64,000 nt of DNA from Minisyncoccota bacterium (GTDB lineage: Bacteria; Patescibacteriota; Minisyncoccia; Phycocordibacterales; UBA12088). A model generated the notes under the pieces. That model worked only from the letters and a program-made list of their open reading frames with translations. It did not search any database and was not told the DNA's origin. Position numbers and translations under genes: made by a program. The stretch lies in assembly GCA_041908795.1 (NCBI GenBank), contig JAYRER010000048.1:18413-82412 (forward strand), in the 5' to 3' direction. Of the stretch, positions 33,456-55,448 are shown piece by piece; the first letter of the stretch is position 1; every line of letters begins with the position of its first letter.

Positions 33456-33479
33456 TTGATAAGCGTTCCGCGTAGCGTG

Positions 33480-37270: not shown

Positions 37271-37275
37271 GCTCG

Positions 37276-38652: not shown

Positions 38653-38694
38653 AGTGGAAATAGGTACTTGCTAGTGTATAGTATCGTTGTGCAT

Positions 38695-39885: not shown

Positions 39886-40748
39886 GGATGTAGGATCTCA
39901 GTCCCGTACACACCTTCCAGAAGATCCGTGTCCTTGCCTGAGTCTCGGAGCAGTTCTATGTTCTTTTTTTCAAGCGCCCGTAGGAGTGTGATTGAATTTT
40001 TTCCATCGATATGTTTCTCAAAATAGTTTGCAAGTGCCGCAAAATCTTTGATGAAACAATGCCCACCTGCGCCCCGACCCAACACCGCACTTTTGTGTCC
40101 ACTCATATCCACAGGGTGCATGTGACTACTGCCTATTCGGGTGTCGGCTGACATTGCTTGTGCGAGCACTTCGTAGTCAGCTCCCACATTCTGACAGAGG
40201 TCGTACAGGAGGTTCATAAAAACCACCTTGGTAAAAAGGAAGCAGTTGCCACCGTACTTGATGAGTTCCGCGGTTATCGCGTCAGTTACCAGTTCGTAAG
40301 GTGCCCGGGGAAGTACCGCAAGTACTTTTCGAGCAGCGTCATGGTACACGTCTGTATCCTCTGGAATGCCCAGTATGTTTCTTTCCGGATTCGCTGCGTC
40401 GTAGGCAGCTGACTTCTCACGTAAAAACTCAGGGGAGTGGAGAATGAGTAGTGTGGGGAAATCTTGCTGCAGTCTGCTTGTCGTACCCGGCAGTATCGTT
40501 GACTTAATAACCGCAATCGCGTTAGGTCCTACCTTGGTGAGGGCATCACGCAATTGACGATCATTGAATCCCTCTGGTGTTGTTGGAGTAGGAACAGCCA
40601 CGAAGACGATTTCGCATTTTGATACCGCCTCCCCATTTTGTGCGTACGGCTCCTCAAGCGCATACCGTATCACCTGATACCCGCGCCGTTCAAAATCATC
40701 GGCGTAATTCTTCCCAATAAACCCTTGGCCTATGCATCCAATCTTCAT
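39882..40748 (-). CDS. Truncated UDP-glucose/UDP-ManNAc 6-dehydrogenase-like protein (N-terminal NAD and central domains only), paralog A
   Basis: KIGCIGQGFIG, IKSTILPGTT, SPEFLREKSA, catalytic-Cys motif GRGAGGHCFIKD. Only 288 aa, so it lacks the roughly 100-aa C-terminal UDP-binding domain. Confidence 0.7.
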   Translation of the reverse strand: MKIGCIGQGFIGKNYADDFERRGYQVIRYALEEPYAQNGEAVSKCEIVFVAVPTPTTPEGFNDRQLRDALTKVGPNAIAVIKSTILPGTTSRLQQDFPTLLILHSPEFLREKSAAYDAANPERNILGIPEDTDVYHDAARKVLAVLPRAPYELVTDAITAELIKYGGNCFLFTKVVFMNLLYDLCQNVGADYEVLAQAMSADTRIGSSHMHPVDMSGHKSAVLGRGAGGHCFIKDFAALANYFEKHIDGKNSITLLRALEKKNIELLRDSGKDTDLLEGVYGTEILHP

Positions 40749-40750
40749 AC

Positions 40751-41674
40751 CTATTTGGTTGCCTTCGGCTTTTTCTTCACTCTTTGCACTTTTCCCTCAA
40801 GACCGGCCCCTTTTCCGTACACACCTTCCAAAAGATCAATATCTTTTTCGGTCATCCTCAGCAAGTGGGTGTTCTTTCGTTCCATTGAGTAGAACACTTC
40901 CGCACCACGAGAATCCCCCGTTGCTTGCTCATACCATCGTGCAAACGCGGCCATATCCTTGATGTAGCAAGGTCCTCCTGCTCCACGACCGGGTACCGCG
41001 CCCGGGTGTCCGCTTGTGTGTACCGGATTGTTGTAGTAGTGCGCTCGAGATGAGAGATAAGGATCTGCATCAAGTGCACGCTTAAGCTCATCCCATGTAG
41101 CTCCAGTGGCTTGAGCCGCATCATACATTAGATTCGTAAATAATATTCGCATATACCCATGAAGATTATGTGCGTACTTGATGAGTTCCGCTTCATGCGA
41201 CGTACATACTTGACTGTGTACACTGGGAGGAAAATGCGACAGTACGGTTTGTGCGTGTTTTTTTGTACTTACCCCGGGAACAAACCCCACGATATTCATG
41301 ATGGGGTATGCCGCATCCCATCCCGCAGTCTTCGCAAGCAAGAACTCGGGAGAAAACATGACGCGAACATTAGGATACTGACTTTGCAGCACTTCCGTGG
41401 TTCCAGGAAGCAGGGTCGACTTGATTACTGCTATTTTTCCCTTTCCGACAAGAGCGATCGATTCGCGTACGATAGAATCATCGAATCCCTTAGGGGTGGT
41501 GGGGGTCGGTACCGCAATAAGAACTATGTCGCAAAGCGCTATTCTTGACTTGTTGTCGCGGTACGCATCTTCAAGCGAGTAGCGCACGGTCTCATAGCCA
41601 CGTTTTTCAAAATCATCGGCATAGCTCCTCCCAACAAACCCTTGGCCGATAAATCCTATAAGAGGTTGTGCCAT
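40751..41674 (-). CDS. Truncated UDP-sugar 6-dehydrogenase-like protein, paralog B (tandem duplicate)
   Basis: IGFIGQGFVG, IKSTLLPGTT, SPEFLLAKTA, GRGAGGPCYIKD. 307 aa, colinear with paralog A. Confidence 0.7.
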   Translation of the reverse strand: MAQPLIGFIGQGFVGRSYADDFEKRGYETVRYSLEDAYRDNKSRIALCDIVLIAVPTPTTPKGFDDSIVRESIALVGKGKIAVIKSTLLPGTTEVLQSQYPNVRVMFSPEFLLAKTAGWDAAYPIMNIVGFVPGVSTKKHAQTVLSHFPPSVHSQVCTSHEAELIKYAHNLHGYMRILFTNLMYDAAQATGATWDELKRALDADPYLSSRAHYYNNPVHTSGHPGAVPGRGAGGPCYIKDMAAFARWYEQATGDSRGAEVFYSMERKNTHLLRMTEKDIDLLEGVYGKGAGLEGKVQRVKKKPKATK

Positions 41675-41979
41675 AAAAAATATCGATTATTAGCTACTCA
41701 AAAAGATTAAATCCGGTGCGCTGGGTATTCTACCCCAAAAATCGCAAAATTGCTCGCGCGAGCTTGTCGGGGTCGTAACGAGTGAGTGTCCGACGCGGAG
41801 GGTCACCCCTCTTTGGCTTCTAGAGCTCTGCTGAATGGAGGGTGAAGTGTCCCTATGGTAACGATATGGGGAAGTTTTTCTCCGCAGGTCGCTGATTGTT
41901 TCGACGCATAACGAACCACCCTAGCACAGTCACATTCGGCTGCTACTGGAGCGGTGCGAGGTGCGTTATGATGTGACAG

Positions 41980-42987
41980 ATGAATGCTCGCACCATTATC
42001 CCAACCCTTATGCACGCAACAGGGTTGCCGCACATAATGAGACTGCGTCAACGAAACCGACTGGTTGTCGTGCTCTACCACGGCGTCACAGATGATATTG
42101 GTACGGGAATTTTCAACTACCGCGGAAAGTTTGTTTCAACACATACGTTTAATAATCATCTTGACTACTTTACACGTCACCACACCGTACTTGGACTCGA
42201 TGAAGCCGTACGTCTACTGTTTTCAGAATCTCCATTGCCTTCCTACCCTCTCTGTATCACATTTGATGATGGGTACAGGAATTTTTTTACCCACGCAGCT
42301 CCGCTTCTCAAGCAGTACCGAATGGCGGCAACCATGTTCCTCACCACCTCATTTATCGACACAAAGAAGCCCTTGTGGGTGGACCGCCTCGAGTACGCCG
42401 CGGGCCATGGAATCCACCCGACACTCCCTGACCGTACCGCGCGCGCAAAATTGGATGCGCAGATACGCTCAAGACTCAAGCAACTCCCGGACCTTGAGCG
42501 CGAATCCACGCTTTCTACATTTGAGGAGAAGGTCGCTGCAAAACTTGTCGATTTTGATGAGTCAAGGAGCGTATACGCACCCCTCTCGTGGAGTGAGGTG
42601 GAAACGTTGGAAAAAGAGGGTATGATGTTTGGTGCCCACAGTGTGCACCACCCTATTCTGACTCGCCTTACACCCGAGGCGCTGCGCGTAGAAGTGGGCG
42701 AATCAAGGGAATGTGTCACGAGGCGCTGCAAGAAATCGTCTTCGGTATTTGCCTATCCGAACGGACAATCGGGTGATTATGATGAGGTAGTCACGCGCGA
42801 AGTGCGCGCGTGCGGATTCACCGCCGCACTGACTACGATTCCCGGCAACAACAAAAAGACCACCAGCCCCTATGCGCTCAAACGCTACACGATGAGCACA
42901 CGGGACGTGGGGGCCTCATTTATTCAAAACGTTACTGGCACTAACACAGCACTTTCATGTCTACTACAACAACTCGGGCGGAGGTGA
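41980..42987 (+). CDS. Polysaccharide deacetylase (CE4), copy 4
   Basis: CITFDDGYRNFFTHAAPLLKQY...HSVHHP. Confidence 0.75.
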   Translation: MNARTIIPTLMHATGLPHIMRLRQRNRLVVVLYHGVTDDIGTGIFNYRGKFVSTHTFNNHLDYFTRHHTVLGLDEAVRLLFSESPLPSYPLCITFDDGYRNFFTHAAPLLKQYRMAATMFLTTSFIDTKKPLWVDRLEYAAGHGIHPTLPDRTARAKLDAQIRSRLKQLPDLERESTLSTFEEKVAAKLVDFDESRSVYAPLSWSEVETLEKEGMMFGAHSVHHPILTRLTPEALRVEVGESRECVTRRCKKSSSVFAYPNGQSGDYDEVVTREVRACGFTAALTTIPGNNKKTTSPYALKRYTMSTRDVGASFIQNVTGTNTALSCLLQQLGRR

Positions 42988-43742
42988 GTTTTTTCAATGA
43001 GCGCAGTCGCTCGTACCTTGATGAGTACGGAAAAGAGACTCCCGAGGGTTTTTCATTCCGTATGCGTCGCGAAGGGGTACTACGGGTACTGCCAGACGGA
43101 GAGGGTAAGCGCGTGCTTGATATTGCCGGCGGACCCGGTGTGATGATAGCCGGTTTGCGTAAAAAAGGATACGAGGTTGACTGTGTGGATGCGGCTCCTG
43201 AAATGGTTGCGCTTGCGGCCCAAGAGGCGCGTGGCGACGCTAAGGTTCACACACACGTCGAAGACGTGCTCGCTCTTTCATACAAAAATGGCACGTTTGA
43301 CGCGCTGACTGCCATGGGTCTTGTTGAGTACCTTGATGATCAGGACAGGGCGATGCGAGAAATGGCACGGGTACTCAAACCTGGAGGTGTTGCGATTATC
43401 ACGTTCCCCAATCGTTACTCTCTATGGCGTTTCTGGGCAGCAACACTGCGGACCGTTTTCTACCCACTGCGTACGCTGCACAAAAAACTGACCGGGAAGC
43501 CGGTGTACCCTATACGTCATCGAGAGTACACACCGGAACAGGCACGAGCGTACATGCGCATACACGGACTTGTGCCTGCGCAGACGATTTACTACAACTA
43601 CAAGCTCATGCCATTTCCTCTCGATAAATTTTTTCCACGATTGACCGTGATTCAGTCGAGCCTCTGTGAAGGTAGAGGGGGAGTATTCTCTCGTTTCTTC
43701 GCCACCGCTTTTATTGTGGAGGGGGTGAAGCGGGCTCTGTAG
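42957..43742 (+). CDS. Class I SAM-dependent methyltransferase, copy 4
   Basis: VLDIAGGPG, LVEYLDD, PGGVAIITFPN. Overlaps PDA4 by 31 nt. Confidence 0.75.
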   Translation: MSTTTTRAEVSFFNERSRSYLDEYGKETPEGFSFRMRREGVLRVLPDGEGKRVLDIAGGPGVMIAGLRKKGYEVDCVDAAPEMVALAAQEARGDAKVHTHVEDVLALSYKNGTFDALTAMGLVEYLDDQDRAMREMARVLKPGGVAIITFPNRYSLWRFWAATLRTVFYPLRTLHKKLTGKPVYPIRHREYTPEQARAYMRIHGLVPAQTIYYNYKLMPFPLDKFFPRLTVIQSSLCEGRGGVFSRFFATAFIVEGVKRAL

Positions 43743-44919
43743 TTTCCTCTATCGAAGAGGTCACGTCGTCAGTGATCCCCCTACTCCTCAGGTAGCAGGT
43801 CTCGAATGATTCTTTCATGGCAGCGAGGTACTCTTCATCCGTAGTCTGAAATTTGTCCTTGACTGCGGTTGCAGCAGCTTCTTTCAATTGTACTCGTAGT
43901 GGAAAACTTTCAATAAGGCTACGAAGTTTGTTGGCGAGACACTCAATGTCTCCCACAGGACACGCCAAGCAATGTACCTTATCTATCAATACCGAACCCA
44001 CGACGCCGACATTGGTCGTCACGATAGGGCAATGGAGCATCGCCGCCTCAACAAGGGTCCTACCAAACCCCTCAAACTCTGAGGTGAGGAAGTAGACATC
44101 GGCACTTTGGTAGTAGCATGCAACATTTTCCTTCCACCCCTCAAACACCACACGATTCTCAAGGTGTAGCTCTTTGACAAGCGAAACCAGTCTTTTTTTC
44201 TCCTTACCCTCTCCCACTATAATTAACCCAACACTCGGATAGTGAGACGCAAGAAGGTTGAAAGCACTAATCGCATCTTCAATACGCTTCTCCGAAGTAA
44301 GTCGAGACACCATGAGCACAGTGAATTTAAAGTAAGGATACTTTTCGTTAAGGTTTGTTACGGGAGGTTTTGTTGGATCAAGATTTGAAAAATCTACCCT
44401 TACAGGAAGCACCGTGAGGACCGCCCCCTCAAGAAGTCCCCGTTGTTCGAATGACTGGCGCACATGGTCAGAGACAATACGCAGACACTGTGTTCGTGCA
44501 ACAAGCCAATTAGCGAGATGCAATCGAATCCTATTGAGCATCCCACTCTCAACAAACTCGGGTGCAAACGGATCGGTGTGCACTTGGAGTTGAAGGGGAA
44601 GTTTGAGCTCTCGCGCGATAAGATACCCCGCCAAACCACACTCAAACGGATCTTGAGCGGAGACGAGATCCACCCGCTCTATGTTCTTCCCCATACGATA
44701 CGCGTCGTACACATAGAGGAGAGGATGACGACTGTTGGTGGCATACACCCATACGTTTGGGGCGATCTGTTGTTTTAAGAGACCTGTACCCCTGCGGGTA
44801 AACACAATAATATGGAGCTCATCAACAATAGCCCCTTGCTTTGTAATGCGCCGCCTAGCCTCGCTCTCGGCATCAAATAGTTTTCGCTCGCTCCCCACCA
44901 AGAGTACATTCATACCCAT
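43711..44919 (-). CDS. Glycosyltransferase family 4 (GT-B)
   Basis: EGFGRTLVEAAMLHCPIVTTNVG (GT4 EX7E-like region). Confidence 0.8.
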   Translation of the reverse strand: MGMNVLLVGSERKLFDAESEARRRITKQGAIVDELHIIVFTRRGTGLLKQQIAPNVWVYATNSRHPLLYVYDAYRMGKNIERVDLVSAQDPFECGLAGYLIARELKLPLQLQVHTDPFAPEFVESGMLNRIRLHLANWLVARTQCLRIVSDHVRQSFEQRGLLEGAVLTVLPVRVDFSNLDPTKPPVTNLNEKYPYFKFTVLMVSRLTSEKRIEDAISAFNLLASHYPSVGLIIVGEGKEKKRLVSLVKELHLENRVVFEGWKENVACYYQSADVYFLTSEFEGFGRTLVEAAMLHCPIVTTNVGVVGSVLIDKVHCLACPVGDIECLANKLRSLIESFPLRVQLKEAAATAVKDKFQTTDEEYLAAMKESFETCYLRSRGITDDVTSSIEETTEPASPPPQ

Positions 44920-45913
44920 AGAGTACCAGAAAATCCCTTGCTATGTCACGGTATGTTCTTCCCCATGGTAGCGCGGCGGCACGTGCGTGCCACATCCTGC
45001 GCTCATTCGAGTCAGCCATTCGAATAACTGCAGCTACGATATCTTCAAGCGAAAGGGGATCAACAAATAGCACACTGTCCTTGAGTGACTCACAGTATCC
45101 GGTCTCTTTGGTGAGAATAACTGGCACACCAAAAGAGAGTGCTTCAAGTGCAATATTTGGTGTTACCTCCGAAAGGGAGGGGAGCACGAGGGCCCACGCA
45201 CGCCGCATCACTCGATGTGCTTCTTCTTGCGGAACGTTGGCGAGAGTCACCAGCTCTATTTCAGGACATGTTGCGCGCGCACGCTCGAATGCTCGTGCGA
45301 GTCGCGCTGTGTTCTTGAGAAAAAGCGGCCTCCCCACCCACACGAAACGCTTACTAGGTGGCTCCTCTGGTACACTGCGTACAGGTTGCACATTCTCGAT
45401 AACTGCGGTTCGCTCGTACGGTATGGTATATGCGGCAACTGTGAGAGCCTGTTGCCATTGAGAAGAAAATACCACTCTGGTGGGTAGCGCGAACACCACT
45501 CTGCGAGTGATACACTTGAGTATTCGCTCATAGAAACTTAGCGGTGGTGAGGTCTGGTAAAATGTTGAAAGTGGTACCTCACACCTGGTACGCTCGACAA
45601 AACGTTCCCACAGGAAATCTCCACCACTACGCACAAATACACACGTACGAAAGAGGCGTGCCATGAGCACTGTAGGGATCGCGACACTCCACGTATCTAG
45701 GGAAATCACTAAGTCCGCTGTTTTTAGGGGTTTCCATAATCCTGCCGCAAACGCAACATGACGCACCACCTTCGGGTACATGCGATAGGTTGAAAACGAA
45801 ACAAGTGAAACTGTATGTCCTTCTGCCACAAACCCATCCCGTAACCCTTCAGAGTAGTAGGAAGGACCTCCCGCCTGCGGAGGACTCAACGGAGTAGCAA
45901 TAACAACGTGCAT
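44873..45913 (-). CDS. Glycosyltransferase (GT-B, GT4-like)
   Basis: LEALSFGVPVILTKETG. The track start is TTG at 45928. The in-frame ATG at 45913 is preferred. Confidence 0.7.
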   Translation of the reverse strand: MHVVIATPLSPPQAGGPSYYSEGLRDGFVAEGHTVSLVSFSTYRMYPKVVRHVAFAAGLWKPLKTADLVISLDTWSVAIPTVLMARLFRTCVFVRSGGDFLWERFVERTRCEVPLSTFYQTSPPLSFYERILKCITRRVVFALPTRVVFSSQWQQALTVAAYTIPYERTAVIENVQPVRSVPEEPPSKRFVWVGRPLFLKNTARLARAFERARATCPEIELVTLANVPQEEAHRVMRRAWALVLPSLSEVTPNIALEALSFGVPVILTKETGYCESLKDSVLFVDPLSLEDIVAAVIRMADSNERRMWHARAAALPWGRTYRDIARDFLVLYGYECTLGGERAKTI

Positions 45914-45926
45914 AACTACAGTATAC

Positions 45927-45959
45927 AAAAAAAGAAAGCGCCGTCATTCAAAACGGCGC
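45927..45959 (-). terminator. Rho-independent terminator (GCGCCGT-cattcaaa-ACGGCGC hairpin followed by TTTCTTTTTTT on the minus strand)
   Basis: Read directly. It terminates minus-strand transcription coming from the rplB side, immediately upstream of the glycosyltransferase start. Confidence 0.6.
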
Positions 45960-46491
45960 AAGTAGCCAACGGCTCGCTTACTACTGCGCATGGCGAACGT
46001 GATAGGCGCGGCCATGAGGAGTAGCGAGAGAATTACAACGACAAACACACAGAGCGAACATAACTGGAGGCACGCATACATCGATACCTTCGCATGCCCC
46101 AGCTGAGCACCAAGCGGTGCCGAATGAACAAGAGAAAGATTGGACCTACCCCTATTCCGTGTCCTGTTGCTTGTTCCGCTCGGGACACTGCTTATGGTCG
46201 CGAGTGTAATGTATGGACGTTCTCTACGCATCGGTCACCCGTATAGTGATGTGTATGCACCCGAAGTTTTCTGAGGCAGTTTGCCCCAGATACGTACCAC
46301 CGAACAATGCGCTGTTCGAAGCCACACGCCAAAGTTGCATGAGTGCAAACAACGCACTTTCTTCCAGTTCTTTAAGGACTTGGTCTTGTCGGTCACACAT
46401 CTGTCGGCTCCCATTCGTTTCAGTTCCTTAACCCAGTAAGCCAGAGTAACCACTTGTGCACAAGTGTCGTAGGGTGAGTTACCAAAAAATT

Positions 46492-47337
46492 CTACTTCCG
46501 GCGTTTACCCACCTTACGACGAGAAACAATGAGCTTGTTACTATACTTCTTTGGTGTGCGTGTTTTGTGTCCTTTGCCGGTAGGCTTGCCATAAATAGAG
46601 CGCGCACGACGGTGACCGCGACCTTGGCGACCCTCACCTCCACCGTGCGGGTGATCAACCGGATTCATCACCGTACCACGCACCGTTGGCCGTACACCGA
46701 GCCAACGACTGCGTCCCGCTTTCCCAAGCGTCACAAGTTGATGCTCTTCGTTGCTCACCACACCGATGGTTGCCCAACAAGTTGAGGGTATCTTACGAAC
46801 CTCAGTGGATGGCATTTTCACGTGAGTATAGGTGCCGTCTTGCGCCACCACATCACAAAAATTGCCCGCGGAGCGCGCAAATCGCGCACCCGCCCCCGGC
46901 TTCGTTTCAATGAGGTGCACTTGCGCACCTATCGGTATGCTACTCAGTGGCATCCGGACGCCAAGTTCAGGTGCGACGGACGTGGAGGCAATAAAACGAT
47001 CCCCCACCTTTGCCGTCTTGTGTGCAAGGATGTAGCGACGTTCACCATCCGCGTAGCAAAGAAGGGCGACATACGAGCTACGATTAGGATCGTACTCGAT
47101 GGATTCAATACGTGCGGGAATGTCGTGCTTGTTGAAAGTGAAGTCTATTTGCCGGTAGACACGCTTATGGCCACCACCTTTATGACGCGTGGTGATGCGT
47201 CCCTGGCTATTCCTTCCCACGGCCCGTTTACCTCCTTTGGTAAGAGCCTTGTGGGGCACGGAAGTAGTCACCACTGTTTTATAGGAACGAGTGGTCATGC
47301 TTCGGCGTGAGGGTGTGGTGGGGTTGTACTTTTTCAT
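46492..47337 (-). CDS. rplB: 50S ribosomal protein L2
   Basis: 281 aa, GGGHKRVYRQIDF...PVDHPHGGGEG. Confidence 0.97.
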   Translation of the reverse strand: MKKYNPTTPSRRSMTTRSYKTVVTTSVPHKALTKGGKRAVGRNSQGRITTRHKGGGHKRVYRQIDFTFNKHDIPARIESIEYDPNRSSYVALLCYADGERRYILAHKTAKVGDRFIASTSVAPELGVRMPLSSIPIGAQVHLIETKPGAGARFARSAGNFCDVVAQDGTYTHVKMPSTEVRKIPSTCWATIGVVSNEEHQLVTLGKAGRSRWLGVRPTVRGTVMNPVDHPHGGGEGRQGRGHRRARSIYGKPTGKGHKTRTPKKYSNKLIVSRRKVGKRRK

Positions 47338-47339: not shown

Positions 47340-47741
47340 TTATACCATGTCGATTTTATCGCCCTTTTTCAGAAACACGTATGCCTTCTTGTATCCCTTA
47401 ATCGTACCGCGACGGCGACGCATCGAGGAAACAAACTTTCGAGGGGCAACGCGGACGACGTTCACCTTAATGGGAGTTACTTTGTAGACTTGCTTGACCG
47501 CCGCCACAATATCACGCTTTGTCGCATCCACAGCTACCATGAACACATACATACCTTTTACCGTAGCATATGCCGCTTTTTCCGTAATGCGAGGTCCTCG
47601 TAGAATGTAGTCGGCACTCTTTGTGAGCGTTGTTATTTCACCTTTTTTCTTCAGTGACTTCTTCGCGGCGTTCGCAACAGAGGACACGCCCTTCGCATCC
47701 ACGTTCTCCTTTTTATCTCCTTTTTTTCCTAGGATAGCCAT
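47340..47741 (-). CDS. rplW: 50S ribosomal protein L23 with a Lys-rich N-terminal extension
   Basis: ADYILRGPRITEKA...KVNVVRV core. Confidence 0.9.
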   Translation of the reverse strand: MAILGKKGDKKENVDAKGVSSVANAAKKSLKKKGEITTLTKSADYILRGPRITEKAAYATVKGMYVFMVAVDATKRDIVAAVKQVYKVTPIKVNVVRVAPRKFVSSMRRRRGTIKGYKKAYVFLKKGDKIDMV

Positions 47742-47745: not shown

Positions 47746-48429
47746 TTATGCGTTAGTCGTCACCTCCTGACCCGCTCGTTTCTTAAGCACTGCAATCGCC
47801 TCTTCCGGAACAGACACGATAAGGTACTTATAGCGAAGAAGCTCAACAGGATTCAAATTGCGAACCTCTTCAACGAGCACATTGCCGAAGTTGCGAAAGC
47901 TTTTCTCTAACGTTGTACTACGTGAGGGGTGTGCGATAAGTGCGGTGTTGGTGCGTTTTGTTTTCAACTTCTCAAACCCCGCAATAGTGGAGAGGTCTAC
48001 CAACACCTGCTTTGCGACTTTAGTTTTCGGTTCACTAAGTGCGATGGTTTCCACAAAGAGCACTTCACCGTCCGCAAGCTTCTTTGAGAGCACCGCGCAG
48101 AGCGCCTTTGTTCGCATCTTTTTATTGATTTTCTGGGTATAGTCACGCTCGTTGCGAGGACCATGGGAAACCGACCCACCCCTCCAAATGGGAGACCTCC
48201 GTGTCCCATGGCGCGCATTGCCGGTACCCTTCTGCTTCCACGGCTTCTTGCCGGTACCGGAAACTTCGCTCGTGGTTTTGGTATGCGCAATAGGGTTACG
48301 TGCGTTCGCCTGCATCGCACGCACAACCTGCGAAACGAGATCTTTGTTCCACGCAACACCAAAAAGTGCATCGGGGAGTTGGAGTTCACCCGCCTGTTTG
48401 CCTTCGCTTGTGTAGATAGTTGCTTTCAT
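47746..48429 (-). CDS. rplD: 50S ribosomal protein L4
   Basis: 227 aa, KPWKQKGTGNARHGTRRSPIWRGGSVSHGP. Confidence 0.95.
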   Translation of the reverse strand: MKATIYTSEGKQAGELQLPDALFGVAWNKDLVSQVVRAMQANARNPIAHTKTTSEVSGTGKKPWKQKGTGNARHGTRRSPIWRGGSVSHGPRNERDYTQKINKKMRTKALCAVLSKKLADGEVLFVETIALSEPKTKVAKQVLVDLSTIAGFEKLKTKRTNTALIAHPSRSTTLEKSFRNFGNVLVEEVRNLNPVELLRYKYLIVSVPEEAIAVLKKRAGQEVTTNA

Positions 48430-48434: not shown

Positions 48435-49040
48435 TTATGCCGCACGTACTTCAATGAGTGTACCGCGTCGTCCCGGTACGGCGCCCTCGAGAATAAGTTG
48501 TCCACGCTCATTGTCAACCGCGAGCACCTTGAGGTTTTTCACCGTCACACGCGTCCCTCCTGTGCGACCTGCCATACGCATACCCTTCGGTACACGAGTA
48601 CGCAAGCCACCGCCTATCGAACCCGGCTGTCGCGCATTGTGCTTTTGACCGTGAGATGCGGGACCTCCCGAAAACCCGTGACGCTTGATGACACCTTGGA
48701 ACCCTTTCGCTTTTGAAATGCCTGACACGGCAACCACGTCACCAGGAGCAAATGCATCCGCCACACCGTAGGTGCTCCCTGCCTCCGGCGCACTCACATC
48801 GTCCGTAAACCGATACTCACAAAAGTGGCGGAACAAGCCCTTGGTGCGTTGTGCCTTATGCACGTGAGACTCCTTTTTCGCGCCATAGCCCACCTGCACC
48901 GCTCGGTAGCCATCCTTTTCCAGAGTCTTCACCTGCGTCACTGTCATAGGCCCCACCTTGAGAATGGTCGCCGGATGTACCCTGCCGTCCTTGTCGAAAA
49001 CCTGGGTCATTTCTTCTTTTGTAGCTAAAATGAATTTCAT
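48435..49040 (-). CDS. rplC: 50S ribosomal protein L3
   Basis: 201 aa, GISKAKGFQGVIKRHGFSGGPASHG. Confidence 0.95.
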   Translation of the reverse strand: MKFILATKEEMTQVFDKDGRVHPATILKVGPMTVTQVKTLEKDGYRAVQVGYGAKKESHVHKAQRTKGLFRHFCEYRFTDDVSAPEAGSTYGVADAFAPGDVVAVSGISKAKGFQGVIKRHGFSGGPASHGQKHNARQPGSIGGGLRTRVPKGMRMAGRTGGTRVTVKNLKVLAVDNERGQLILEGAVPGRRGTLIEVRAA

Positions 49041-49374
49041 GCTTGTCTTTGATTCCTACGTATCGTGGACCTAAAAAAAATCGTTACCCTGCACTTTCGA
49101 AGAAAATACTATCCGAAACAACCGATAGAGATTGCGACACACCGCAACGTGTTGCGTCTGCAATGCTTAGAAAGGCTTAGAAAGTGCAGGATTGTAGAAG
49201 AATATAGTCGCTTTGCTCCTTATTCTTCTACAAAAATCGCCCATACCGGACCAGTCGCCGGTAAGGCGGAAAGTCCAGTGGTTTTTGGCTCTGTTGAGCC
49301 GAAAACATGGAGTTAGCAACAGTGCTAACCTATGAGCCCATGCACTATACAGGAACTATGTGTGGGATGCAAAT

Positions 49375-49403
49375 TTGACATAAATTATGTTGGATAGTAT
49401 AAT
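49375..49403 (+). promoter_or_regulatory. Consensus sigma70-type promoter TTGACA-17 nt-TATAAT on the plus strand, inside the rplC-rpsJ gap
   Basis: ttgacataaattatgttggatagtataat read directly. It matches the canonical -35/-10 hexamers exactly with 17-nt spacing, followed by AGGAG (49428-49432) and TTG at 49441. Confidence 0.5.
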
Positions 49404-49440
49404 ATCAACAGTAGTTCGCCACCACCGAGGAGTACGCAAA

Positions 49441-49671
49441 TTGGACATTGCGGTTCAGGGTGTTGCTGCGGTTATCACGTTCTTCTTTGCAGTGCGTGCG
49501 TTTGTGAAGGAGGAAAAGCGCAGTGCGGTATACGCGTTTTTTGGGCTCGCGTGGCTCATGTTCTGGTGCGCGTACCTCGATTGGCTCGAGATCCTCCACT
49601 GGGTGATGGACGCCACCTGTCTGTTTTTTGGTGCTTGCCTCCATATGTTCTTCATAAAAAAAATGTTGTAG
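49441..49671 (+). CDS. Small hydrophobic membrane protein (about 76 aa) on the strand opposite the flanking ribosomal genes
   Basis: The track ORF 49387-49671 begins inside the promoter spacer. TTG at 49441 has a GAGGAG SD 8 nt upstream. The product has 2-3 TM helices. Confidence 0.4.
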   Translation: MDIAVQGVAAVITFFFAVRAFVKEEKRSAVYAFFGLAWLMFWCAYLDWLEILHWVMDATCLFFGACLHMFFIKKML

Positions 49672-49742: not shown

Positions 49743-50108
49743 TTAGCTCATCTTCACATCTATGTTCACGCCGCTCGGGAGAGACAGATTCGTGAGTGCC
49801 TCGATGATTTTTGGATTCGGATTCAAGATATCAATCACCCGCTTGTGTACCCGCATCTCGAACTGCTCTCGCGCGTCCTTGTGGACGAATGCGGCTCGGT
49901 TTACGGTATACTTCTTTATTTCGGTAGGGAGCGGCACGGGACCGACCACCTTTGCGTCGTAGCGAAGCGCGGTATCCATGATTTGTTTGATGCTCGCGTC
50001 AAGGATTTTATGCTCGTACGCGCGAATGCGGATGCGAAGCTTCGCGCCCTCACCCGTTACGGGCTTCACTGCACGGGTACGCTTTGCTTTTGTTGTGGCG
50101 GTGGTCAT
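49743..50108 (-). CDS. rpsJ: 30S ribosomal protein S10
   Basis: IRIRAYEHKILD...GPVPLPT. Confidence 0.95.
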   Translation of the reverse strand: MTTATTKAKRTRAVKPVTGEGAKLRIRIRAYEHKILDASIKQIMDTALRYDAKVVGPVPLPTEIKKYTVNRAAFVHKDAREQFEMRVHKRVIDILNPNPKIIEALTNLSLPSGVNIDVKMS

Positions 50109-50128: not shown

Positions 50129-51334
50129 CTATGCCGTGACCTTGGTGACGACACCCGCACCAACAGTCTTACCTCCCTCGCGGATGGCAAAGCGTTGCTG
50201 TGCTTCGAGTGCGACAGGGGCGACAAGTTTAACCTTGAACGTCACCGTATCACCCGGCATTACCATCTCTACACCCTCAGCGAGTGTCACTTCACCCGTC
50301 ACGTCTGTCGTACGGATGTAGAACTGGGGCTTGTAGCCTGTGAAAAAAGGCGTGTGACGGCCACCCTCTTCCTTCTTGAGGATGTATACCTCGCTCTCGA
50401 AGTCGGTGTGTGGGGTAACTGAGCCGGTCTTTGCGAGCACTTGACCGCGGTGCACATCTTCCTTCTTCGTGCCTCGAAGGAGCACGCCTGCATTGTCACC
50501 TGCGCGTCCCTCGGTAAGTTGTTTGTTGAACATCTCGATACCCGTCACGGTAGTCTTTGTGGTGGGCTTGATGCCGACGATTTCTACTTCCTCGCCGACC
50601 TTCACTATACCGCGTTCAACGCGGCCGGTAACCACCGTACCCCTACCTTCGATGGAGAAGATGTCTTCGATGGGCATGAGGAACGGCTTCTCAACATCGC
50701 GCACCGGCTCGGGAATGTACGAGTCGAGCGTGTCGATGAGCTCGGTGATTTTCTTTGCCCACTCATCGTCGGCCGACTTCGCCTCGAGCGCTTTGAGGCC
50801 CGAGCCGCGGATGACGGGAGCGTTCTTGCCGTCGAAGCCGTGCTTGTCGAGGAGTTCACGGAGCTCTTCCTCAACGAGATCAAGCATGTCCGGGTCGTCC
50901 ACCATGTCGCACTTGTTCAAAAATACGATGATTTTGGGTACGCCTACCTGGCGAGCGAGGAGCACGTGCTCTTTCGTCTGGGGCATCGCGCCGTCGGTCG
51001 CCGCAACCACCAAGACCGCACCGTCCATTTGAGCGGCGCCGGTAATCATGTTCTTGATGTAGTCGGCGTGGCCGGGAGCGTCAATGTGCGCGTAGTGGCG
51101 GTTCGGACTCTCGTACTCACTGTGGTGGAGTGCAATAGTAATACCGCGCGCCTTTTCCTCGGGCGCATTATCAATGCCGTCAACACCCTCAACACGGGCG
51201 CTGTAGCCCTTGTCCTTGGCGAGGTTGCCAAGCACGTGAAGGATTGCGGCGGTGGTGGTGGTCTTTCCGTGGTCAACGTGGCCTATGGTGCCGACGTTCA
51301 CGTGAGGCTTAGACCTGTCGAATGCTTCTGCCAT
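50129..51334 (-). CDS. tuf: Elongation factor Tu
   Basis: 401 aa, [21 protein letters not shown]. Confidence 0.98.
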
Positions 51335-52108: not shown

Positions 52109-54253
52109 CTACCCCCTCGCTTTCACAATCTCTGCCGCAACGTTTGGTGGCACGACTGCATAGTGATCAAACTCCATGGTCATGTTGCCACGCCCCTCGG
52201 TCATTGAACGGAGTGTGGTGGTGTAGCCGAACATCTCCGAGAGCGGTACTTTGGCGTTCACCGCAACCGCCATGCCGCGCGGCTCGCTCCCCTCGATTTG
52301 CCCGCGCTTGCTTGCCAAATGACCGTTGATGTCGCCCATAAATTTCTCCGGTACCACCACCTCCACCTTCATCACCGGCTCAAGAAGAACAGCGCCGGCT
52401 TTCTTGGCAGCCTCTTGAAACGCCTGACTTCCTGCGATTTTGAAAGCGATTTCGCTCGAGTCCACTTCGTGGTAGCTCCCATCAAAGAGGTCGCATGAGA
52501 CATCCACCATCTTGTAGCCCGCAACGACACCGCGGTCCATCGCCTCACGCACACCCTTCTGTACCGCCGGAATGTACTCCTGTGGAATCACACCTCCTTT
52601 GATGTTGTTCACAAACTCAAAATGGTCCTCACGCGAAACGTTATTGGGACGCTTTGCACCCTCCACCTCCTGTTGGAGCGGACGAAGCTTGAGCTTCACA
52701 TGTCCGTACTGGCCACGACCACCTGTTTGCTTGATGTACTTACACTCTGCCTCAGCCTCACGTTGAATGGTCTCACGGTACGCAACTTGTGGGCGACCCG
52801 TGTTCGCTTCAACCTTAAACTCCCGCTTCATGCGATCCACAAGAATTTCCAAGTGTAGCTCACCCATACCGGAAATTATTGTTTCACCCGTCTCCTCGTC
52901 TGACGTAATGCGGAATGTCGGATCTTCATCGGCGAGCTTCTTAAGTGCCATTCCCATTTTCTCTTGGTCTTGCTTTGTTTTCGGTTCGATACGCACAGAC
53001 ACCACCGGCTCGGGGAATACAATTTGCTCAAGAATAACAGGATTCGACTCATCTGAGAGTGTATGCGAGGTTTTTGTATCTTTTAGTCCTACCGCAGCAG
53101 CTATTTCTCCCGCAAACACTTTTTTCACATCTTCGCGCTTGTCCGCCTGGAGGCGCACAATGCGTCCGATACGCTCCTTATCACCCGTAGTGGTGTTCAA
53201 GATGTAGGATCCGGCCTCAAGGGTGCCGGAGTAAACACGGAAAAAAGTGAGCGCACCTACAAATGGATCCGTTTGGAGCTTGAACGCAAGAGCGCAGAAA
53301 GGTTCGTCATCGGAGGGGGCCCGTGTGACTTCCGCGCCCGTCTTTGGATCAGTACCCTTCACGGGAGGAAGGTCGAGCGGACTCGGAAGAAAATCAACGA
53401 CCGCATCAAGAACCGGTTGCACTCCTTTGTTTTTGAGTGCAGAACCGCAGAATACGGGAAAAATTTGGTTTGCGATAACCGCCTTCCGCAGGAGCTTTTT
53501 AAGCTCGTCGACCGAGGGCTCGTTACCCTCAAGGTAGTTATTCATCGCTTGTTCATCGTTTTCAACAATTCGCTCAATGAGCTCGGCTCGGTATTTCTCG
53601 ACATCCGCCTTCAAGTGTTCCGGCACTTCCACCATGGTGACGTTTTCTCCCATTTTTCCTTCATAATGGAAAGCTTTTCTTGTGAGGAGGTCGATTTGAC
53701 CATTATGTTGATCCTCTTCTCCAATGGGAATTTGCATGCGAACCGCAAGCTTTGAGAGGCGGTCGAGGATACTCGCATAGCTTCGCTCGAAAGATGCTCC
53801 GGTACGATCGAGCTTGTTGATGAAACAGAGGCGCGGTACATTCGCTTCATCAGCGTACCGCCAGTTGGTCTCACTCTGCGGCTCAACACCCGCCACACCG
53901 TCGAATACAACAACTGCACCGTCGAGTACACGCATTGAACGCTTTACTTCTGCCGTAAAATCGATGTGACCCGGAGTGTCAATAATATTGAAACGTGCTT
54001 TTTTGTTTTGATCTTTCGCATCGTCGCCGATTTTCGTCCAGAAGCAGGTGATTGCCGCTGAGGTTATGGTGATACCGCGCTCACGCTCCTGCTCCATCCA
54101 GTCGGTGACCGTATCGCCCTCGTGTACCTCGCCTATTTTATGACTCATGCCCGTATAGAAGAGTACACGCTCCGATGTGGTGGTCTTCCCCGCGTCGATA
54201 TGGGCAATGATGCCGAAGTTACGAACTCGCTCAAGTGGGTAATCTCTGTTCAT
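52109..54253 (-). CDS. fusA: Elongation factor G
   Basis: 714 aa, [17 protein letters not shown]. Confidence 0.98.
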
Positions 54254-54414: not shown

Positions 54415-54885
54415 TTACCACGCGAAGTGTGCAAACGCACGGTTTGCTTCCGCCATGCGATGGGTCTCCTCTCGCTTTTTGAAAGCGGAGCCTTCGCTCT
54501 TTGAAGCCGCAATAAGTTCGTCAGCCAAGAACTGCGCCGCAGGTGCACCGTTCTTTGAACGGGTCGCGGCGATAATCCAACGCATTGCAAGGGCACGGCG
54601 TCGCTCAGGGCGAACCTCACGTGGCACTTGGTAGTTAGCGCCCCCAACACGGCGACTACGCACCTCAACGGTCGGTCCCACGTTGCGAATTGCTGCCTCG
54701 AACACCTCGAGTGGGTTCTCAACCTGCGCTTTCTCCTTTATGATATCAAGTGCGCCGTAAACCACCTTGCGAGCGGCTTCCTTCTTTCCGTCCCACATGA
54801 GGGAGTTAATGAACTTCGCAAGCTCCGCGCTCTTGTAACGCTCGTCAGGTTGCACGGGAATCTTCTTTTTAAGTGGTCTCCTCAT
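54415..54885 (-). CDS. rpsG: 30S ribosomal protein S7
   Basis: 156 aa S7 fold (KFINSLMWDGKK...). Confidence 0.95.
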   Translation of the reverse strand: MRRPLKKKIPVQPDERYKSAELAKFINSLMWDGKKEAARKVVYGALDIIKEKAQVENPLEVFEAAIRNVGPTVEVRSRRVGGANYQVPREVRPERRRALAMRWIIAATRSKNGAPAAQFLADELIAASKSEGSAFKKREETHRMAEANRAFAHFAW

Positions 54886-55325: not shown

Positions 55326-55448
55326 GAGAAAATATCGGTACAAAAAACTGCGGTTTCGCAGTGGAGGTACTGTACTACATGCCATAATGAAACGCAAGGT
55401 GTACACAATGAACACACGTCGCACACCCCACCGTCGCGCTTCGTCGCC

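What the first reader, a model, noticed from the sequence alone, without database searches (positions are those of the whole stretch)
45927..46491. The conserved S10/str ribosomal gene order stops at rplB: a terminator and glycosyltransferases follow instead of rpsS-rplV-rpsC
On the minus strand the order is rpsL-rpsG-fusA-tuf-rpsJ-rplC-rplD-rplW-rplB. It then runs into a 560-nt non-coding/low-confidence region and a strong terminator hairpin (45927-45959), and then directly into the glycan island. rplB-rpsS linkage is among the most conserved in bacteria. Its disruption by a 35 kb compositionally mosaic island suggests island insertion into the r-protein superoperon, a genome rearrangement, or an assembly join.
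Basis: partly seen in the sequence, partly recalled or inferred. Interest (0 to 1): 0.55.

Follow-up and report, generated by a model that had tools for sequence, protein, structure and literature searches.

The report
Split ribosomal-protein operon in a CPR bacterium
In this tiny uncultured bacterium the normally unbroken ribosomal-protein gene row is cut after rplB; the missing half (rpsS onward) lies elsewhere behind its own promoter, which relatives with an intact row also carry and which probably let the cut be tolerated.

Summary
On the minus strand the order is rpsL-rpsG-fusA-tuf-rpsJ-rplC-rplD-rplW-rplB. A 548-nt gap with a strong terminator hairpin follows, then glycosyltransferases. 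No rpsS, rplV or rpsC lies anywhere in the 64 kb.

It is not an assembly join. A separately built assembly and a sister species (92% L2 identity) carry the same junction.

I located the missing half. In both organisms rpsS-rplV-rpsC... sits on another contig directly behind a different glycosyltransferase, at least 47 kb away (at least 62 kb in the sister, if collinear).

The five nearest outgroups examined (L2 79-82% identical in the four measured) have rplB and rpsS 70-76 nt apart, so the split is derived in this two-species lineage.

That short spacer is filled by a promoter-like site (TTGACA-17-TAnnAT), a hairpin and a U-run. The same module still heads rpsS in the split lineage. In more distant relatives 0.3-7.8 kb of unrelated cargo sits upstream of it.

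In 45 non-CPR and 3 other CPR loci the gap is at most 41 nt and the motif is absent.

Best reading: rpsS was already its own transcription unit in this clade, which made the junction tolerant of insertion and separation. Insertion versus rearrangement is unresolved. Moderately interesting genome architecture, not a new molecular system.

The parts
54909..55334 (-). rpsL (S12), first gene of the str block. An M50 peptidase and a bPH-domain gene lie upstream instead of rpoBC.
   Evidence: Pfam PF00164. The 142-aa stretch is 97% identical to L002.
54415..54885 (-). rpsG (S7)
   Evidence: Pfam PF00177, E = 5e-59.
52109..54253 (-). fusA (EF-G)
   Evidence: Pfam GTP_EFTU plus the EF-G domains.
50129..51334 (-). 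tuf (EF-Tu)
   Evidence: Pfam GTP_EFTU, D2 and D3.
49743..50108 (-). rpsJ (S10)
   Evidence: Pfam PF00338, E = 2e-31.
49387..49671 (+). Antisense 94-aa ORF in the rpsJ|rplC gap. It has its own 12/12 sigma-70-like promoter (49375-49403) and terminator (49698-49723).
   Evidence: Promoter and terminator scan. A 51%-identical homolog sits at the same place in L002. No Pfam family.
49239..49373 (-). Conserved promoter-like site (TTTGCA-18-TATAGT) plus a multi-hairpin leader upstream of rplC. It ends in the hairpin GTCCGGTATGGGC followed by a U-run.
   Evidence: Nearly identical to L002 while the flanks are about 60% identical. A consensus fold with L002, L084 and L087 gives 33 pairs, 8 of them with compensatory changes. 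No Rfam match.
49041..49228 (-). 190-nt segment between that leader and the rplC start. It is present in the window but absent from L002 and contains inverted repeats.
   Evidence: Pairwise alignment.
48435..49040 (-). rplC (L3)
   Evidence: Pfam PF00297. 83% identical to L002.
47746..48429 (-). rplD (L4)
   Evidence: Pfam PF00573, E = 2e-58.
47340..47741 (-). rplW (L23)
   Evidence: Pfam PF00276.
46492..47337 (-). rplB (L2), the last ribosomal-protein gene of this block.
   Evidence: Pfam PF00181 and PF03947.
46082..46491 (-). Spacer after rplB with no recognisable gene or RNA.
   Evidence: Fold z = -0.04. Poorly conserved against L002. Rfam gives only E > 7 matches. No remnant of this organism's own S19.
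45944..46081 (-). Possible small membrane-protein ORF, 45 aa (or 95 aa if it starts at 46231). One hydrophobic helix and a basic tail ...KRAVGYLRRFE.
   Evidence: A same-size ORF at the same position in L002. Weak similarity only: phmmer E = 2e-4 in a 112-sequence set, BLASTP E = 0.07. Part of that similarity may merely reflect the conserved hairpin DNA.
45928..45959 (-). Intrinsic-terminator-like hairpin (stem 45959-45938, T-run 45937-45928). It would end the rplC-rplB transcription unit.
   Evidence: Terminator scan. -19.1 kcal/mol, z = -3.8. Stem and T-run are conserved in L002 within an otherwise diverged spacer.
45920..45947 (-). Promoter-like site for the glycan genes (ATGACG-16-TATACT). 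Its -35 element lies in the 3' arm of the terminator. The -10 element ends 6 nt before the GT4 start codon, which would give a near-leaderless mRNA.
   Evidence: Promoter scan, 9 of 12 matches. TATACT is conserved in L002. Weak on its own.
44873..45913 (-). GT4 glycosyltransferase, the first gene after the break.
   Evidence: Pfam PF00534 and PF13692. Gene call of 346 aa in L001. 65% identical ortholog at the same place in L002.
43711..44919 (-). Second GT4 glycosyltransferase.
   Evidence: Pfam. 80% identical ortholog in L002.
11611..43742 (.). Remainder of the glycan-biosynthesis cluster: GT2 and GT4 enzymes, epimerases/dehydratases, polysaccharide deacetylases, methyltransferases, a carbamoyltransferase, WecB, Bac_transf, a GtrA-domain protein and a nucleotidyltransferase.
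   Evidence: Pfam. The part from 30.8 to 45.9 kb is syntenic with L002. GC ranges from 44 to 62%.

Best explanation
The break is a real, inherited split of the S10 ribosomal-protein cluster. It is confined to a small Parcubacteria/Paceibacteria-type CPR lineage: the window organism and one sister species.

Unit 1 is rplC-rplD-rplW-rplB, possibly with a small membrane ORF. It is headed by a conserved leader after rpsJ. It now ends at a conserved intrinsic terminator (45938-45959). That terminator overlaps the promoter-like site of a glycan-biosynthesis cluster.

Unit 2 is rpsS-rplV-rpsC-rplP-...-secY-adk-map. It lies at least 47 kb away, directly downstream of another GT4 glycosyltransferase gene.

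The split was tolerable because rpsS already had its own expression signals across this clade. A compact module sits directly upstream of rpsS: TTGACA, 17 nt, TAnnAT, about 7 nt, a short hairpin (often GCUCG...CGAGC), a U-run, then ATG 12-18 nt later. This module fills the whole 70-76-nt spacer in relatives with adjacent genes. It stays attached to rpsS wherever DNA has been inserted.

rplB|rpsS is therefore an operon border here, not an intra-operon junction. Like operon borders of the same supercluster in Gammaproteobacteria and Bacilli, it collects small insertions and can then be fully disconnected.

Shown: the gene order, the junction in independent assemblies, the location of rpsS, the polarity of the change, and the presence and position of the sequence module.

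Inferred: that the module is an active promoter and leader, that the hairpins terminate transcription, and that this is why the junction is permissive.

Not resolved: whether the halves were separated by insertion that then grew, or by an inversion or translocation.
For: Junction is real.
- The same rplB-gap-GT4-GT4 arrangement is in Logan contig L001 (99.99% identical) and in sister MAG locus L002.
- L002 is syntenic on both sides: bPH-M50-rpsL...rplB, then GT4-GT4-MT-deacetylase-UDPGDH-epimerase-NTP-transferase-deacetylase-MT.

The other half was found.
- S3 protein P0218 lies on CAYLHB010000006.1 of the same MAG as L002. The order there is ...epimerase-IspA-GT4 followed by rpsS-rplV-rpsC-...-secY-adk-map.
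- P0214 is 97% identical to P0218 and at most 78% identical to every other S3 retrieved.
- P0214 lies on a contig from SRR26835459, the sample that holds the window organism. A GT4 C-terminus matching the sister's GT4 precedes rpsS on that contig.

Polarity.
- Among about 5.8 billion proteins, the window L2 has only a 100% hit, the 92% sister, and then hits of 82% or lower.
- Outgroups L082-L085 (L2 79-82% identical) and L087 (L2 not compared) have gaps of 70-76 nt and a full S10-spc row.

The module.
- TTGAC lies at -63 to -69 and the hairpin starts at -26 to -33 relative to the rpsS ATG in about 18 loci. Stems differ between lineages: GCTCG/CGAGC, AGCTC/GAGCT, GGCTC/GAGCC, CCCGC/GCGGG, GAAGCT/GGCTTC.
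- It is present in L089, L090 and L091 after the GT4 gene.
- The strict promoter pattern occurs within 100 nt upstream of rpsS in 23 of 31 clade loci, against 0 of 45 non-CPR and 0 of 3 other CPR loci. In those the gap is at most 41 nt.
- A covariance model of the module hits only upstream of rpsS and upstream of rpsN/rpsH, apart from two weak hits taken as chance (E about 0.3; window 33456-33513 and L056).

Recurrent invasion of the junction.
- Gaps of 0.3-7.8 kb occur in 22 other loci. No rpsS lies within 10 kb in L022 or L025.
- The cargo is unrelated between lineages: 98 of 112 ORFs are singletons.
- By my reading of the sequences, the cargo includes toxin-antitoxin-like genes, an IS200-type transposase, a pilin, a NUDIX hydrolase, GatA, PrfB and GlyRS.

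Precedent. In other phyla, insertions at operon borders of this supercluster are followed by full disconnection (PMC8046335). Operon pairs there are joined by terminator-promoter overlaps (PMC6735719).
Against: - No transcript data exist. Promoter and terminator calls are consensus matches only.
- The GT4 promoter-like site scores only 9 of 12.
- The hairpin upstream of rpsS does not fold better than shuffled sequence when taken with its flanks (z = -0.14 and -1.2).
- Covariation within the GCUC class is slight. Three of 5 pairs never vary, and 7 of 500 shuffles reach the observed score. The element could be a plain terminator, a protein site, or both.
- Eight of the 31 clade loci lack the strict motif within 100 nt. 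Several of these (L009, L011, L019, L020, L031) have a longer, different leader; at least L011 and L020 carry TTGAC further upstream.
- The link between the two halves is inferred from best-match logic and a shared sample or assembly. It is not a closed genome.
- The clade's branching order was not reconstructed. 'Independent insertions' rests on unrelated cargo, not on a tree.
Confidence: 0.7

Rival explanations
1. Assembly or binning artefact. The contig is a chimeric join after rplB, and the true genome has rplB-rpsS adjacent.
For: The source is evidently a metagenome-derived CPR genome. The sequence after rplB differs in function and is mosaic in composition (GC 44-62%).
Against: - The same junction is in a separately built Logan assembly.
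- It is also in a different species from a different assembly, with diverged sequence (GT4 65%, L2 92%) and conserved synteny on both sides.
- The reciprocal junction GT4-rpsS appears in three assemblies: L089, L090 and L091.
- A terminator and a promoter box are conserved at the junction.
Confidence: 0.03
2. One-step horizontal insertion. A glycan-biosynthesis island integrated between rplB and the rpsS promoter, and rpsS still lies at the far end of one contiguous insert.
For: - Glycan genes on the same strand abut both cut ends. After rplB comes GT4-GT4. Before rpsS comes epimerase-IspA-GT4.
- The cluster is compositionally mosaic, with a 57-62% GC block at 20-32 kb.
- The same junction takes 0.3-7.8 kb insertions in other lineages.
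- A TrwB/TraG-like gene lies 5 kb upstream of rpsS in the sister MAG.
Against: - The insert would have to exceed 47 kb here and about 62 kb in the sister.
- It would include ordinary chromosomal genes: RecG, a PBP/L,D-transpeptidase, tRNA-Ser, DedA and PilM/FtsA.
- None of the genes upstream of the sister's rpsS is present in the window.
- No integrase, transposase or flanking direct repeats were found.
- The island has diverged in step with the rest of the locus and differs by internal indels between the two species.
Confidence: 0.2
3. Chromosomal rearrangement. An inversion or translocation with one breakpoint in the rplB|rpsS spacer moved one half of the cluster. The glycan genes at both ends are simply the new neighbours.
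For: - The minimum separation is large, and core genes lie beyond the glycan cluster.
- L022 and L025 show housekeeping genes such as glycyl-tRNA synthetase and M16 peptidases (my reading of the sequences), and no rpsS within 10 kb of rplB.
- Full disconnection by further rearrangement after a first insertion is the pattern reported for operon borders of this supercluster (PMC8046335).
Against: - Glycosyltransferase genes at both new junctions, in the same orientation as the ribosomal genes, would then be a coincidence.
- Cumulative GC skew runs smoothly through the junction.
- No repeat that could have mediated recombination was seen.
- The relative orientation of the halves is unknown.
Confidence: 0.35
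4. The spacer hides a degraded rpsS or a structured non-coding RNA, so the operon is decayed rather than split.
For: 548 nt without a recognised gene directly follow rplB, where rpsS is expected.
Against: - The organism's own S19 gives only a 20-residue chance hit (E = 6).
- An intact rpsS exists elsewhere.
- The spacer has no excess structure (z = -0.04).
- It has no Rfam match better than E = 7.
- It is poorly conserved against the sister species.
Confidence: 0.02

Closest known systems
Canonical bacterial S10 operon (rpsJ-rplC-rplD-rplW-rplB-rpsS-rplV-rpsC-rplP-rpmC-rpsQ), as in E. coli
   Same: Same genes in the same relative order within each half. The str block precedes, and spc-type genes and secY-adk-map follow rpsS... 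on the other contig.
   Different: - It is physically cut after rplB.
- rpsJ is also separated from rplC, by about 700 nt holding an antisense gene.
- Promoter-like sites and leaders sit before rplC and rpsS. E. coli has a single promoter and the L4-controlled leader before rpsJ (established knowledge).
- All 45 non-CPR loci examined keep rplB-rpsS within 41 nt.
[quoted passage not shown]
   Same: Small multigene insertions land between transcription units. In some descendants this is followed by full separation of more than 10 kb, the pattern seen here across the clade.
   Different: - Most events examined in detail in that paper lie at borders between operons; one (nrdHEF between rplL and rsmC) lies inside the rpoBC operon. 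A search of the text for 'rplB' and 'within the S10' found no occurrence.
- Here the border lies inside what is one operon in those organisms.
- The phylum is different (CPR), and the cargo in this lineage is a glycan cluster.
Operon concatenation by inter-operon terminator-promoter overlap (Brandis, Cao and Hughes 2019, PMC6735719)
   Same: In relatives with adjacent genes, the 70-76-nt rplB-rpsS spacer packs a promoter-like site and a terminator-like hairpin with U-run together. In the window, the rplB-side terminator overlaps the promoter-like site of the GT4 gene.
   Different: - In the rpsS module the promoter precedes the hairpin, so the hairpin would lie at the 5' end of the new transcript.
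- No expression or fitness data exist here.
- That paper argues such overlaps hold operons together. In this clade the junction is frequently broken.
Ribosomal-protein leaders that act by transcription attenuation (for example the E. coli S10 leader bound by L4)
   Same: A short leader ending in a hairpin plus U-run just upstream of the first gene of a ribosomal-protein unit. It is seen before rpsS, before rpsN/rpsH and, in a longer multi-hairpin form, before rplC.
   Different: No sequence or Rfam relationship to any known leader. No evidence of protein binding. The rpsS element is a single 4-8-bp hairpin that could be nothing more than a terminator or a 5' stabiliser.

Membership tests
Canonical contiguous S10 operon | rplB immediately followed by rpsS-rplV-rpsC on the same strand | tested here: not met
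   No S19, L22 or S3 lies anywhere in the 64 kb. rpsS is on another contig behind a GT4 gene.
Canonical contiguous S10 operon | rpsJ-rplC-rplD-rplW-rplB in order and tightly linked | tested here: inconclusive
   The order is kept. However, rpsJ and rplC are about 700 nt apart, with an antisense gene and a separate promoter-like site and leader before rplC.
Canonical contiguous S10 operon | Single transcription unit from one promoter upstream of rpsJ | not testable with these tools
   Sequence predicts internal promoters before rplC and rpsS. No transcript data are available.
Intrinsic (Rho-independent) terminator | G+C-rich stem-loop directly followed by a U-run, downstream of a gene on the same strand | tested here: met
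   An 8-bp stem with 6 G-C pairs, a 6-nt loop, then TTTCTTTTTT. z = -3.8. Conserved in the sister species. Termination activity itself was not tested.
Horizontally acquired genomic island | Integrase or transposase, a flanking tRNA or direct repeats at the ends | tested here: not met
   Pfam finds no integrase or transposase among the large ORFs between 1 and 46 kb. No direct repeats bracket the cluster. The only tRNA (Ser, 1952-2041) is far from both island ends.
Horizontally acquired genomic island | Composition unlike the host, and absence from close relatives | tested here: inconclusive
   GC is mosaic at 44-62% against about 50-55% in the ribosomal genes. The cluster is shared with the sister species. 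It is absent from this position in the outgroups examined, but whether they carry it elsewhere was not tested.
Operon-border insertion hot spot (as in PMC8046335) | Insertions fall between transcription units, upstream of the next unit's promoter | tested here: met
   In 14 interrupted loci the strict promoter motif sits directly before rpsS (most also show the hairpin), downstream of the cargo. In adjacent-gene relatives it fills the spacer. That it is an active promoter is inferred.
Operon-border insertion hot spot (as in PMC8046335) | Different, unrelated cargo in different lineages | tested here: met
   98 of 112 inserted ORFs have no homolog among the others at E = 1e-5.
Autoregulatory ribosomal-protein leader RNA | Conserved structure supported by covariation, and binding of a protein encoded downstream | tested here: inconclusive
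   rpsS hairpin: position is conserved and alternative stems occur, but covariation is weak and there is no Rfam hit. rplC leader: compensatory changes in 8 of 33 and 7 of 26 predicted pairs, from only 4-5 sequences each. Protein binding cannot be tested here.

The most novel reading that the evidence does not exclude
In Parcubacteria/Paceibacteria-type CPR bacteria the S10-spc ribosomal-protein row has been re-partitioned into several autonomous units: rpsJ | rplC-rplB | rpsS-rplE | rpsN/rpsH onward. Each of the last three is headed by a conserved promoter plus a hairpin/U-run leader. For rpsS and rpsN that hairpin often has the same GCUC...GAGC stem. These leaders would be a clade-specific regulatory device for ribosomal-protein synthesis. 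The unit borders would act as preferred landing sites for accessory DNA such as toxin-antitoxin pairs, IS200 and glycan clusters. The window would be the extreme case, in which a border has been pulled apart completely.
Probability: 0.35. Interest if true: 0.6.

Novelty: new variant of a known kind. Interest (0 to 1): 0.42.

Why it matters
rplB-rpsS adjacency is one of the most stable gene neighbourhoods in bacteria. It underlies the habit of treating the 16 syntenic ribosomal proteins as a single co-assembled marker block when binning and placing uncultured genomes.

In this CPR clade that block is repeatedly interrupted, and in at least one lineage it is split across distant loci. This has three consequences.
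- Marker-block assumptions can fail for these organisms. Such breaks should not automatically be treated as misassemblies.
- It gives a natural test of the idea that insertions and rearrangements in the translation supercluster occur where transcription units already begin and end.
- It points to short conserved leaders before rplC, rpsS and rpsN. These are candidate control elements for ribosome synthesis in organisms where nothing is known about such control.

The direct juxtaposition of ribosomal genes with a large cell-surface glycan cluster is probably incidental, but it is stable across two species.

Tried and rejected
- Looked for rpsS, rplV, rpsC, rplP, rplN and rplE in the window with E. 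coli sequences and with the organism's own proteins. Nothing found.
- Tested the spacer as a structured RNA or a known RNA family. Fold z = -0.04, and Rfam gave only E > 7 matches.
- Tested the 95-aa ORF. No Pfam family, and only weak positional similarity to the sister species. I keep it as 'possible'.
- Tried to pick out the lineage's S3 by correlating identity profiles between L2 and S3. This was not discriminating. One search was an empty script.
- Two S3 candidates chosen that way belonged to other organisms (P0133 and P0183). P0183 did yield a useful extra outgroup, L087.
- The successful route was an isolated pair of near-identical S3 sequences, checked by assembly and sample identity.
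- Tried to walk left from the window through the Logan assembly. This gained only 857 nt (a PilM/FtsA-like gene) and no link to the rpsS side.
- Looked for direct or inverted repeats bracketing the island. None was relevant.
- A MAFFT alignment of the rpsS leaders put the hairpins out of register, so stems were extracted by script instead.
- A mixed alignment of two rplC leader types gave no consensus structure. They were then split by type.
- The covariance model was trained on six close sequences, so it is biased towards GCUC stems and misses the CCCGC class.
- Five full-text literature searches found no description of these interruptions in CPR bacteria. This is absence within the held library only.
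Full report
**What is in the window**

Pfam scans confirm the minus-strand order rpsL, rpsG, fusA, tuf, rpsJ, rplC, rplD, rplW, rplB. rplB ends at 46492. The next recognisable gene is a family-4 glycosyltransferase (GT4). The gene call on an independent contig places its start at the ATG at 45913. A second GT4 follows it.

The 548 nt between rplB and the GT4 stop codon-to-terminator region break down as follows.
- A 410-nt spacer (46082-46491) has no excess RNA structure (z = -0.04), no Rfam match better than E = 7, and little conservation against the closest relative.
- A possible small membrane ORF follows: 45 aa from the ATG at 46081, or 95 aa from 46231. A same-sized ORF sits at the same position in the relative, but similarity is weak.
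The stem is 45959-45938 and the T-run is 45937-45928. It was found by the terminator scan and folds at -19.1 kcal/mol with z = -3.8.
- A promoter-like ATGACG-16-TATACT overlaps the 3' arm and T-run of that hairpin. It ends 6 nt before the GT4 start.
- The hairpin and the TATACT box are the only well-conserved parts of the spacer in the relative.

No S19, L22, S3, L16, L14 or L5 gene occurs anywhere in the 64 kb. This holds for E. coli queries and for the organism's own proteins, found later.

**Extent of the glycan cluster**

Pfam scans of the large ORFs show a glycan-biosynthesis cluster from about 11.6 kb to 45.9 kb. It may start at 10.3 kb if a weak PMT_2-like membrane protein belongs to it. 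Its genes include:
- GT2 and GT4 transferases;
- four NAD-dependent epimerase/dehydratases;
- four polysaccharide deacetylases and four methyltransferases;
- a carbamoyltransferase, WecB, a Bac_transf priming transferase, a GtrA-domain protein, a nucleotidyltransferase and two tandem UDP-glucose-dehydrogenase-like genes.

To its left lie ordinary genes: a DedA/VTT protein, RecG, a PBP/L,D-transpeptidase, an ion channel and tRNA-Ser. rpsS is not there. No integrase or transposase was seen, and no repeats bracket the cluster.

**Not an assembly artefact**

An exact-protein look-up of the window's L2 returned a Logan assembly contig from run SRR26835459. It carries rplD-rplW-rplB-gap-GT4-GT4-methyltransferase-deacetylase-... 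and matches the window at 99.99% over 8.8 kb.

A scan of one genome per species placed the organism among Parcubacteria/Paceibacteria-type Patescibacteria (CPR). It also found one close relative, a MAG contig CAYLHB010000005.1 (locus L002) with L2 92% identical.

L002 has the same junction and is syntenic on both sides. On the rpsL side it has bPH and M50 peptidase. After rplB it has at least nine of the glycan genes. Protein identities range from 55 to 88%, and there are a few indels, including a 4.7-kb segment present only in the window.

**Polarity of the change**

A search of about 5.8 billion proteins with the window's L2 found a 100% hit, the 92% relative, and nothing else above 82%. The genomic context of four of the next-nearest relatives (L2 79-82% identical) and of L087, reached through its S3 protein, shows rplB followed by rpsS after 70-76 nt and a complete S10-spc row down to secY-adk-map.

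In addition, 35 of the retrieved S3 proteins appear to lie on the same contig as one of the L2 relatives, judged by matching contig length. Some of those contigs are only 3-5 kb long. The split is therefore derived in the window-plus-sister lineage.

**Where rpsS went**

I searched with the S3 protein of the nearest outgroup and looked for an isolated pair of near-identical sequences. This mirrors how the window's L2 has only one close relative.

P0218 and P0214 are 97% identical to each other and at most 78% identical to everything else.
- P0218 lies on CAYLHB010000006.1, a different contig of the same MAG as L002. The gene order there is DUF4015, HAD hydrolase, TrwB/TraG-like, LTD/PKD protein, a 516-aa epimerase, IspA and a 403-aa GT4. 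Then follow rpsS-rplV-rpsC-rplP-rpmC-rpsQ-rplN-rplX-rplE-rpsN-rpsH-rplF-rplR-rpsE-rplO-secY-adk-map.
- P0214 lies on a 1.9-kb Logan contig from SRR26835459, the sample that holds the window organism. That contig begins with the last 35 codons of a gene matching the C-terminus of the sister's GT4. It continues with rpsS-rplV-rpsC.

None of the genes upstream of the sister's rpsS occurs in the window. A Logan contig that extends the window 857 nt to the left adds only a PilM/FtsA-like gene.

Minimum separations, if the halves are collinear at all:
- About 47 kb in the window organism.
- About 62 kb in the sister: 32 kb of contig follows rplB and 30 kb precedes rpsS.

**The same junction is unstable across the clade**

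Among the more distant Parcubacteria-type loci (L2 58-67% identical), the rplB-to-rpsS distance ranges from 52 nt to 7.8 kb. In L022 and L025 no rpsS lies within 10 kb.

The inserted ORFs are unrelated between lineages: 98 of 112 are singletons. By inspection of their sequences, they include toxin-antitoxin-like genes, an IS200-type transposase, a pilin, a NUDIX hydrolase, an SPFH protein, and housekeeping genes such as GatA, PrfB and glycyl-tRNA synthetase.

In all 45 non-CPR loci retrieved by the same scan, and in three more distant CPR loci, the gap is 41 nt or less.

**Why this junction**

Printing the 140 nt upstream of rpsS in every locus revealed a module with fixed geometry:
- TTGACA, a 17-nt spacer, then TAnnAT;
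- about 7 nt;
- a 4-8-bp hairpin;
- a U-run;
- ATG 12-18 nt later.

TTGAC lies at -63 to -69 and the hairpin starts at -26 to -33. In relatives with adjacent genes, this module is the whole spacer. In interrupted relatives it sits between the cargo and rpsS. In the split lineage it sits between the GT4 gene and rpsS, scoring 10 of 12 in the promoter scan.

The strict pattern occurs within 100 nt of rpsS in 23 of 31 clade loci and in none of the 48 others. L011 and L020 carry TTGAC about 120 nt upstream, ahead of a longer leader that again ends in a hairpin and U-run; L009, L019 and L031 share that longer leader type. Four loci have the promoter-like site so close to the ATG that the mRNA would be nearly leaderless.

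A covariance model built from six examples hit only two kinds of place in 0.72 Mb, apart from two weak hits I take as chance (E about 0.3; window 33456-33513 and L056 16259-16319). One is upstream of rpsS. The other is upstream of rpsN/rpsH, another junction where relatives carry insertions.

A promoter scan of an intact relative placed the best plus-strand sites before tuf, rplC, rpsS and rpsN/rpsH.

Stem sequences differ between lineages: GCTCG/CGAGC, AGCTC/GAGCT, GGCTC/GAGCC, CCCGC/GCGGG and GAAGCT/GGCTTC. Within the commonest class the stem is conserved rather than covarying, so statistical support for a structure is weak. The hairpin with its flanks does not fold better than shuffled sequence. 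No Rfam family matches.

**Interpretation**

In this clade rpsS appears to start its own transcription unit, so rplB|rpsS is an operon border.

This fits what is described for the same supercluster in Gammaproteobacteria and Bacilli. There, insertions mostly land between operons and are often followed by complete disconnection (PMC8046335). Neighbouring operons are joined by terminator-promoter overlaps (PMC6735719).

The new elements here are the position of the border (inside the classical S10 operon), the phylum, and the recurrence. Five literature searches found no description of it.

The data do not show how the halves were parted.
- For insertion: glycan genes in the same orientation abut both cut ends, which suggests a glycan-cluster insertion as the first step.
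- For rearrangement or later growth: the separation is large and core genes lie beyond the cluster.

I put these at roughly 0.2 for a single contiguous insertion and 0.35 for rearrangement. The remainder is a mixture of the two.

**Limits**

- All promoter, terminator and leader assignments are sequence predictions.
- The link between the two halves rests on shared assembly or sample and on unique best matches, not on a closed chromosome.
- 'Independent insertions' rests on unrelated cargo, not on a reconstructed tree.
- The clade name is taken from the titles of the database records.

Noticed in passing
window 49239-49373 (-): A roughly 135-nt stretch upstream of rplC is nearly identical to the sister species, while its flanks are about 60% identical. 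It holds a promoter-like TTTGCA-18-TATAGT and three or four hairpins. The last hairpin is followed by a U-run just before the rplC start in the sister. The same leader type is in L084 and L087, and a second type is in L010, L014, L016, L021 and L033. There is no Rfam match. It is a candidate ribosomal-protein (L4?) attenuator leader.
   Followed up: partly
window 49041-49228 (-): A 190-nt segment lies between that leader and the rplC start codon. It is present only in the window. It contains inverted repeats (CCTGCACTTTC...GAAAGTGCAGG and GTAGAAGAATA...TATTCTTCTAC). It may be a small insertion element or an added hairpin.
   Followed up: no
window 49375-49723 (+): A 94-aa ORF (49387-49671) lies antisense between rpsJ and rplC. 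It has a perfect 12/12 sigma-70-type promoter and an 11-bp terminator hairpin. A 51%-identical homolog sits at the same place in the sister species. It has no Pfam family. Relatives carry other cargo in this gap, for example a ParE toxin and a TrmB regulator in L083.
   Followed up: partly
L083 11230-11286, L085 16250-16320, L087 13185-13251: The promoter-plus-GCUC-hairpin module also occurs between rplE and rpsH, upstream of the likely rpsN position. Relatives carry inserted genes at that junction too.
   Followed up: partly
window 2777-2804 and 9867-9894; 9735-9770: A 28-nt self-complementary motif (AAAGAATTACGTAATCGATTACGTAATT) occurs twice, 7 kb apart. The copies bracket the ion-channel/PBP/RecG/DedA block. 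A perfect 36-nt palindrome lies just after the DedA gene.
   Followed up: no
window 35226-39897 and 39882-41674: A 4.7-kb segment is absent from the sister species. It holds a hypothetical gene, an epimerase, the Bac_transf priming transferase and a GT4. The window also has two tandem UDP-glucose-dehydrogenase-like genes where the sister has one, so the glycan cluster is still being remodelled.
   Followed up: partly
window 20000-32000: A block of 57-62% GC lies inside a cluster that is otherwise 44-53% GC. This suggests the glycan cluster has a mosaic origin.
   Followed up: no
window 55449-57033 (-): An M50 peptidase gene and a bacterial PH-domain gene lie directly upstream of rpsL where rpoB-rpoC usually sit. 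The sister species has the same arrangement, so the str block is also detached from rpoBC.
   Followed up: no
L089 1783-5549: In the sister MAG, a TrwB/TraG-like coupling-protein homolog and an LTD/PKD-domain protein lie 4-7 kb upstream of rpsS. This could hint at mobile or secretion-related DNA near the other cut end.
   Followed up: no
L034, L037, L041, L052, L054, L070: These loci, whose record titles name Eggerthellaceae and related Coriobacteriia, show 3-7 kb between rplW and rplB while keeping rplB-rpsS tight. This is a different interrupted junction of the same operon in another phylum.
   Followed up: no
L030 10944-11288; L026 2227-2616; L004 4449-4844: Directly after rplB in other relatives lie an IS200-type transposase-like ORF, a MazF/PemK-like ORF and a HEPN-like ORF. 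These identifications are my reading of the sequences and were not confirmed with a family search.
   Followed up: no
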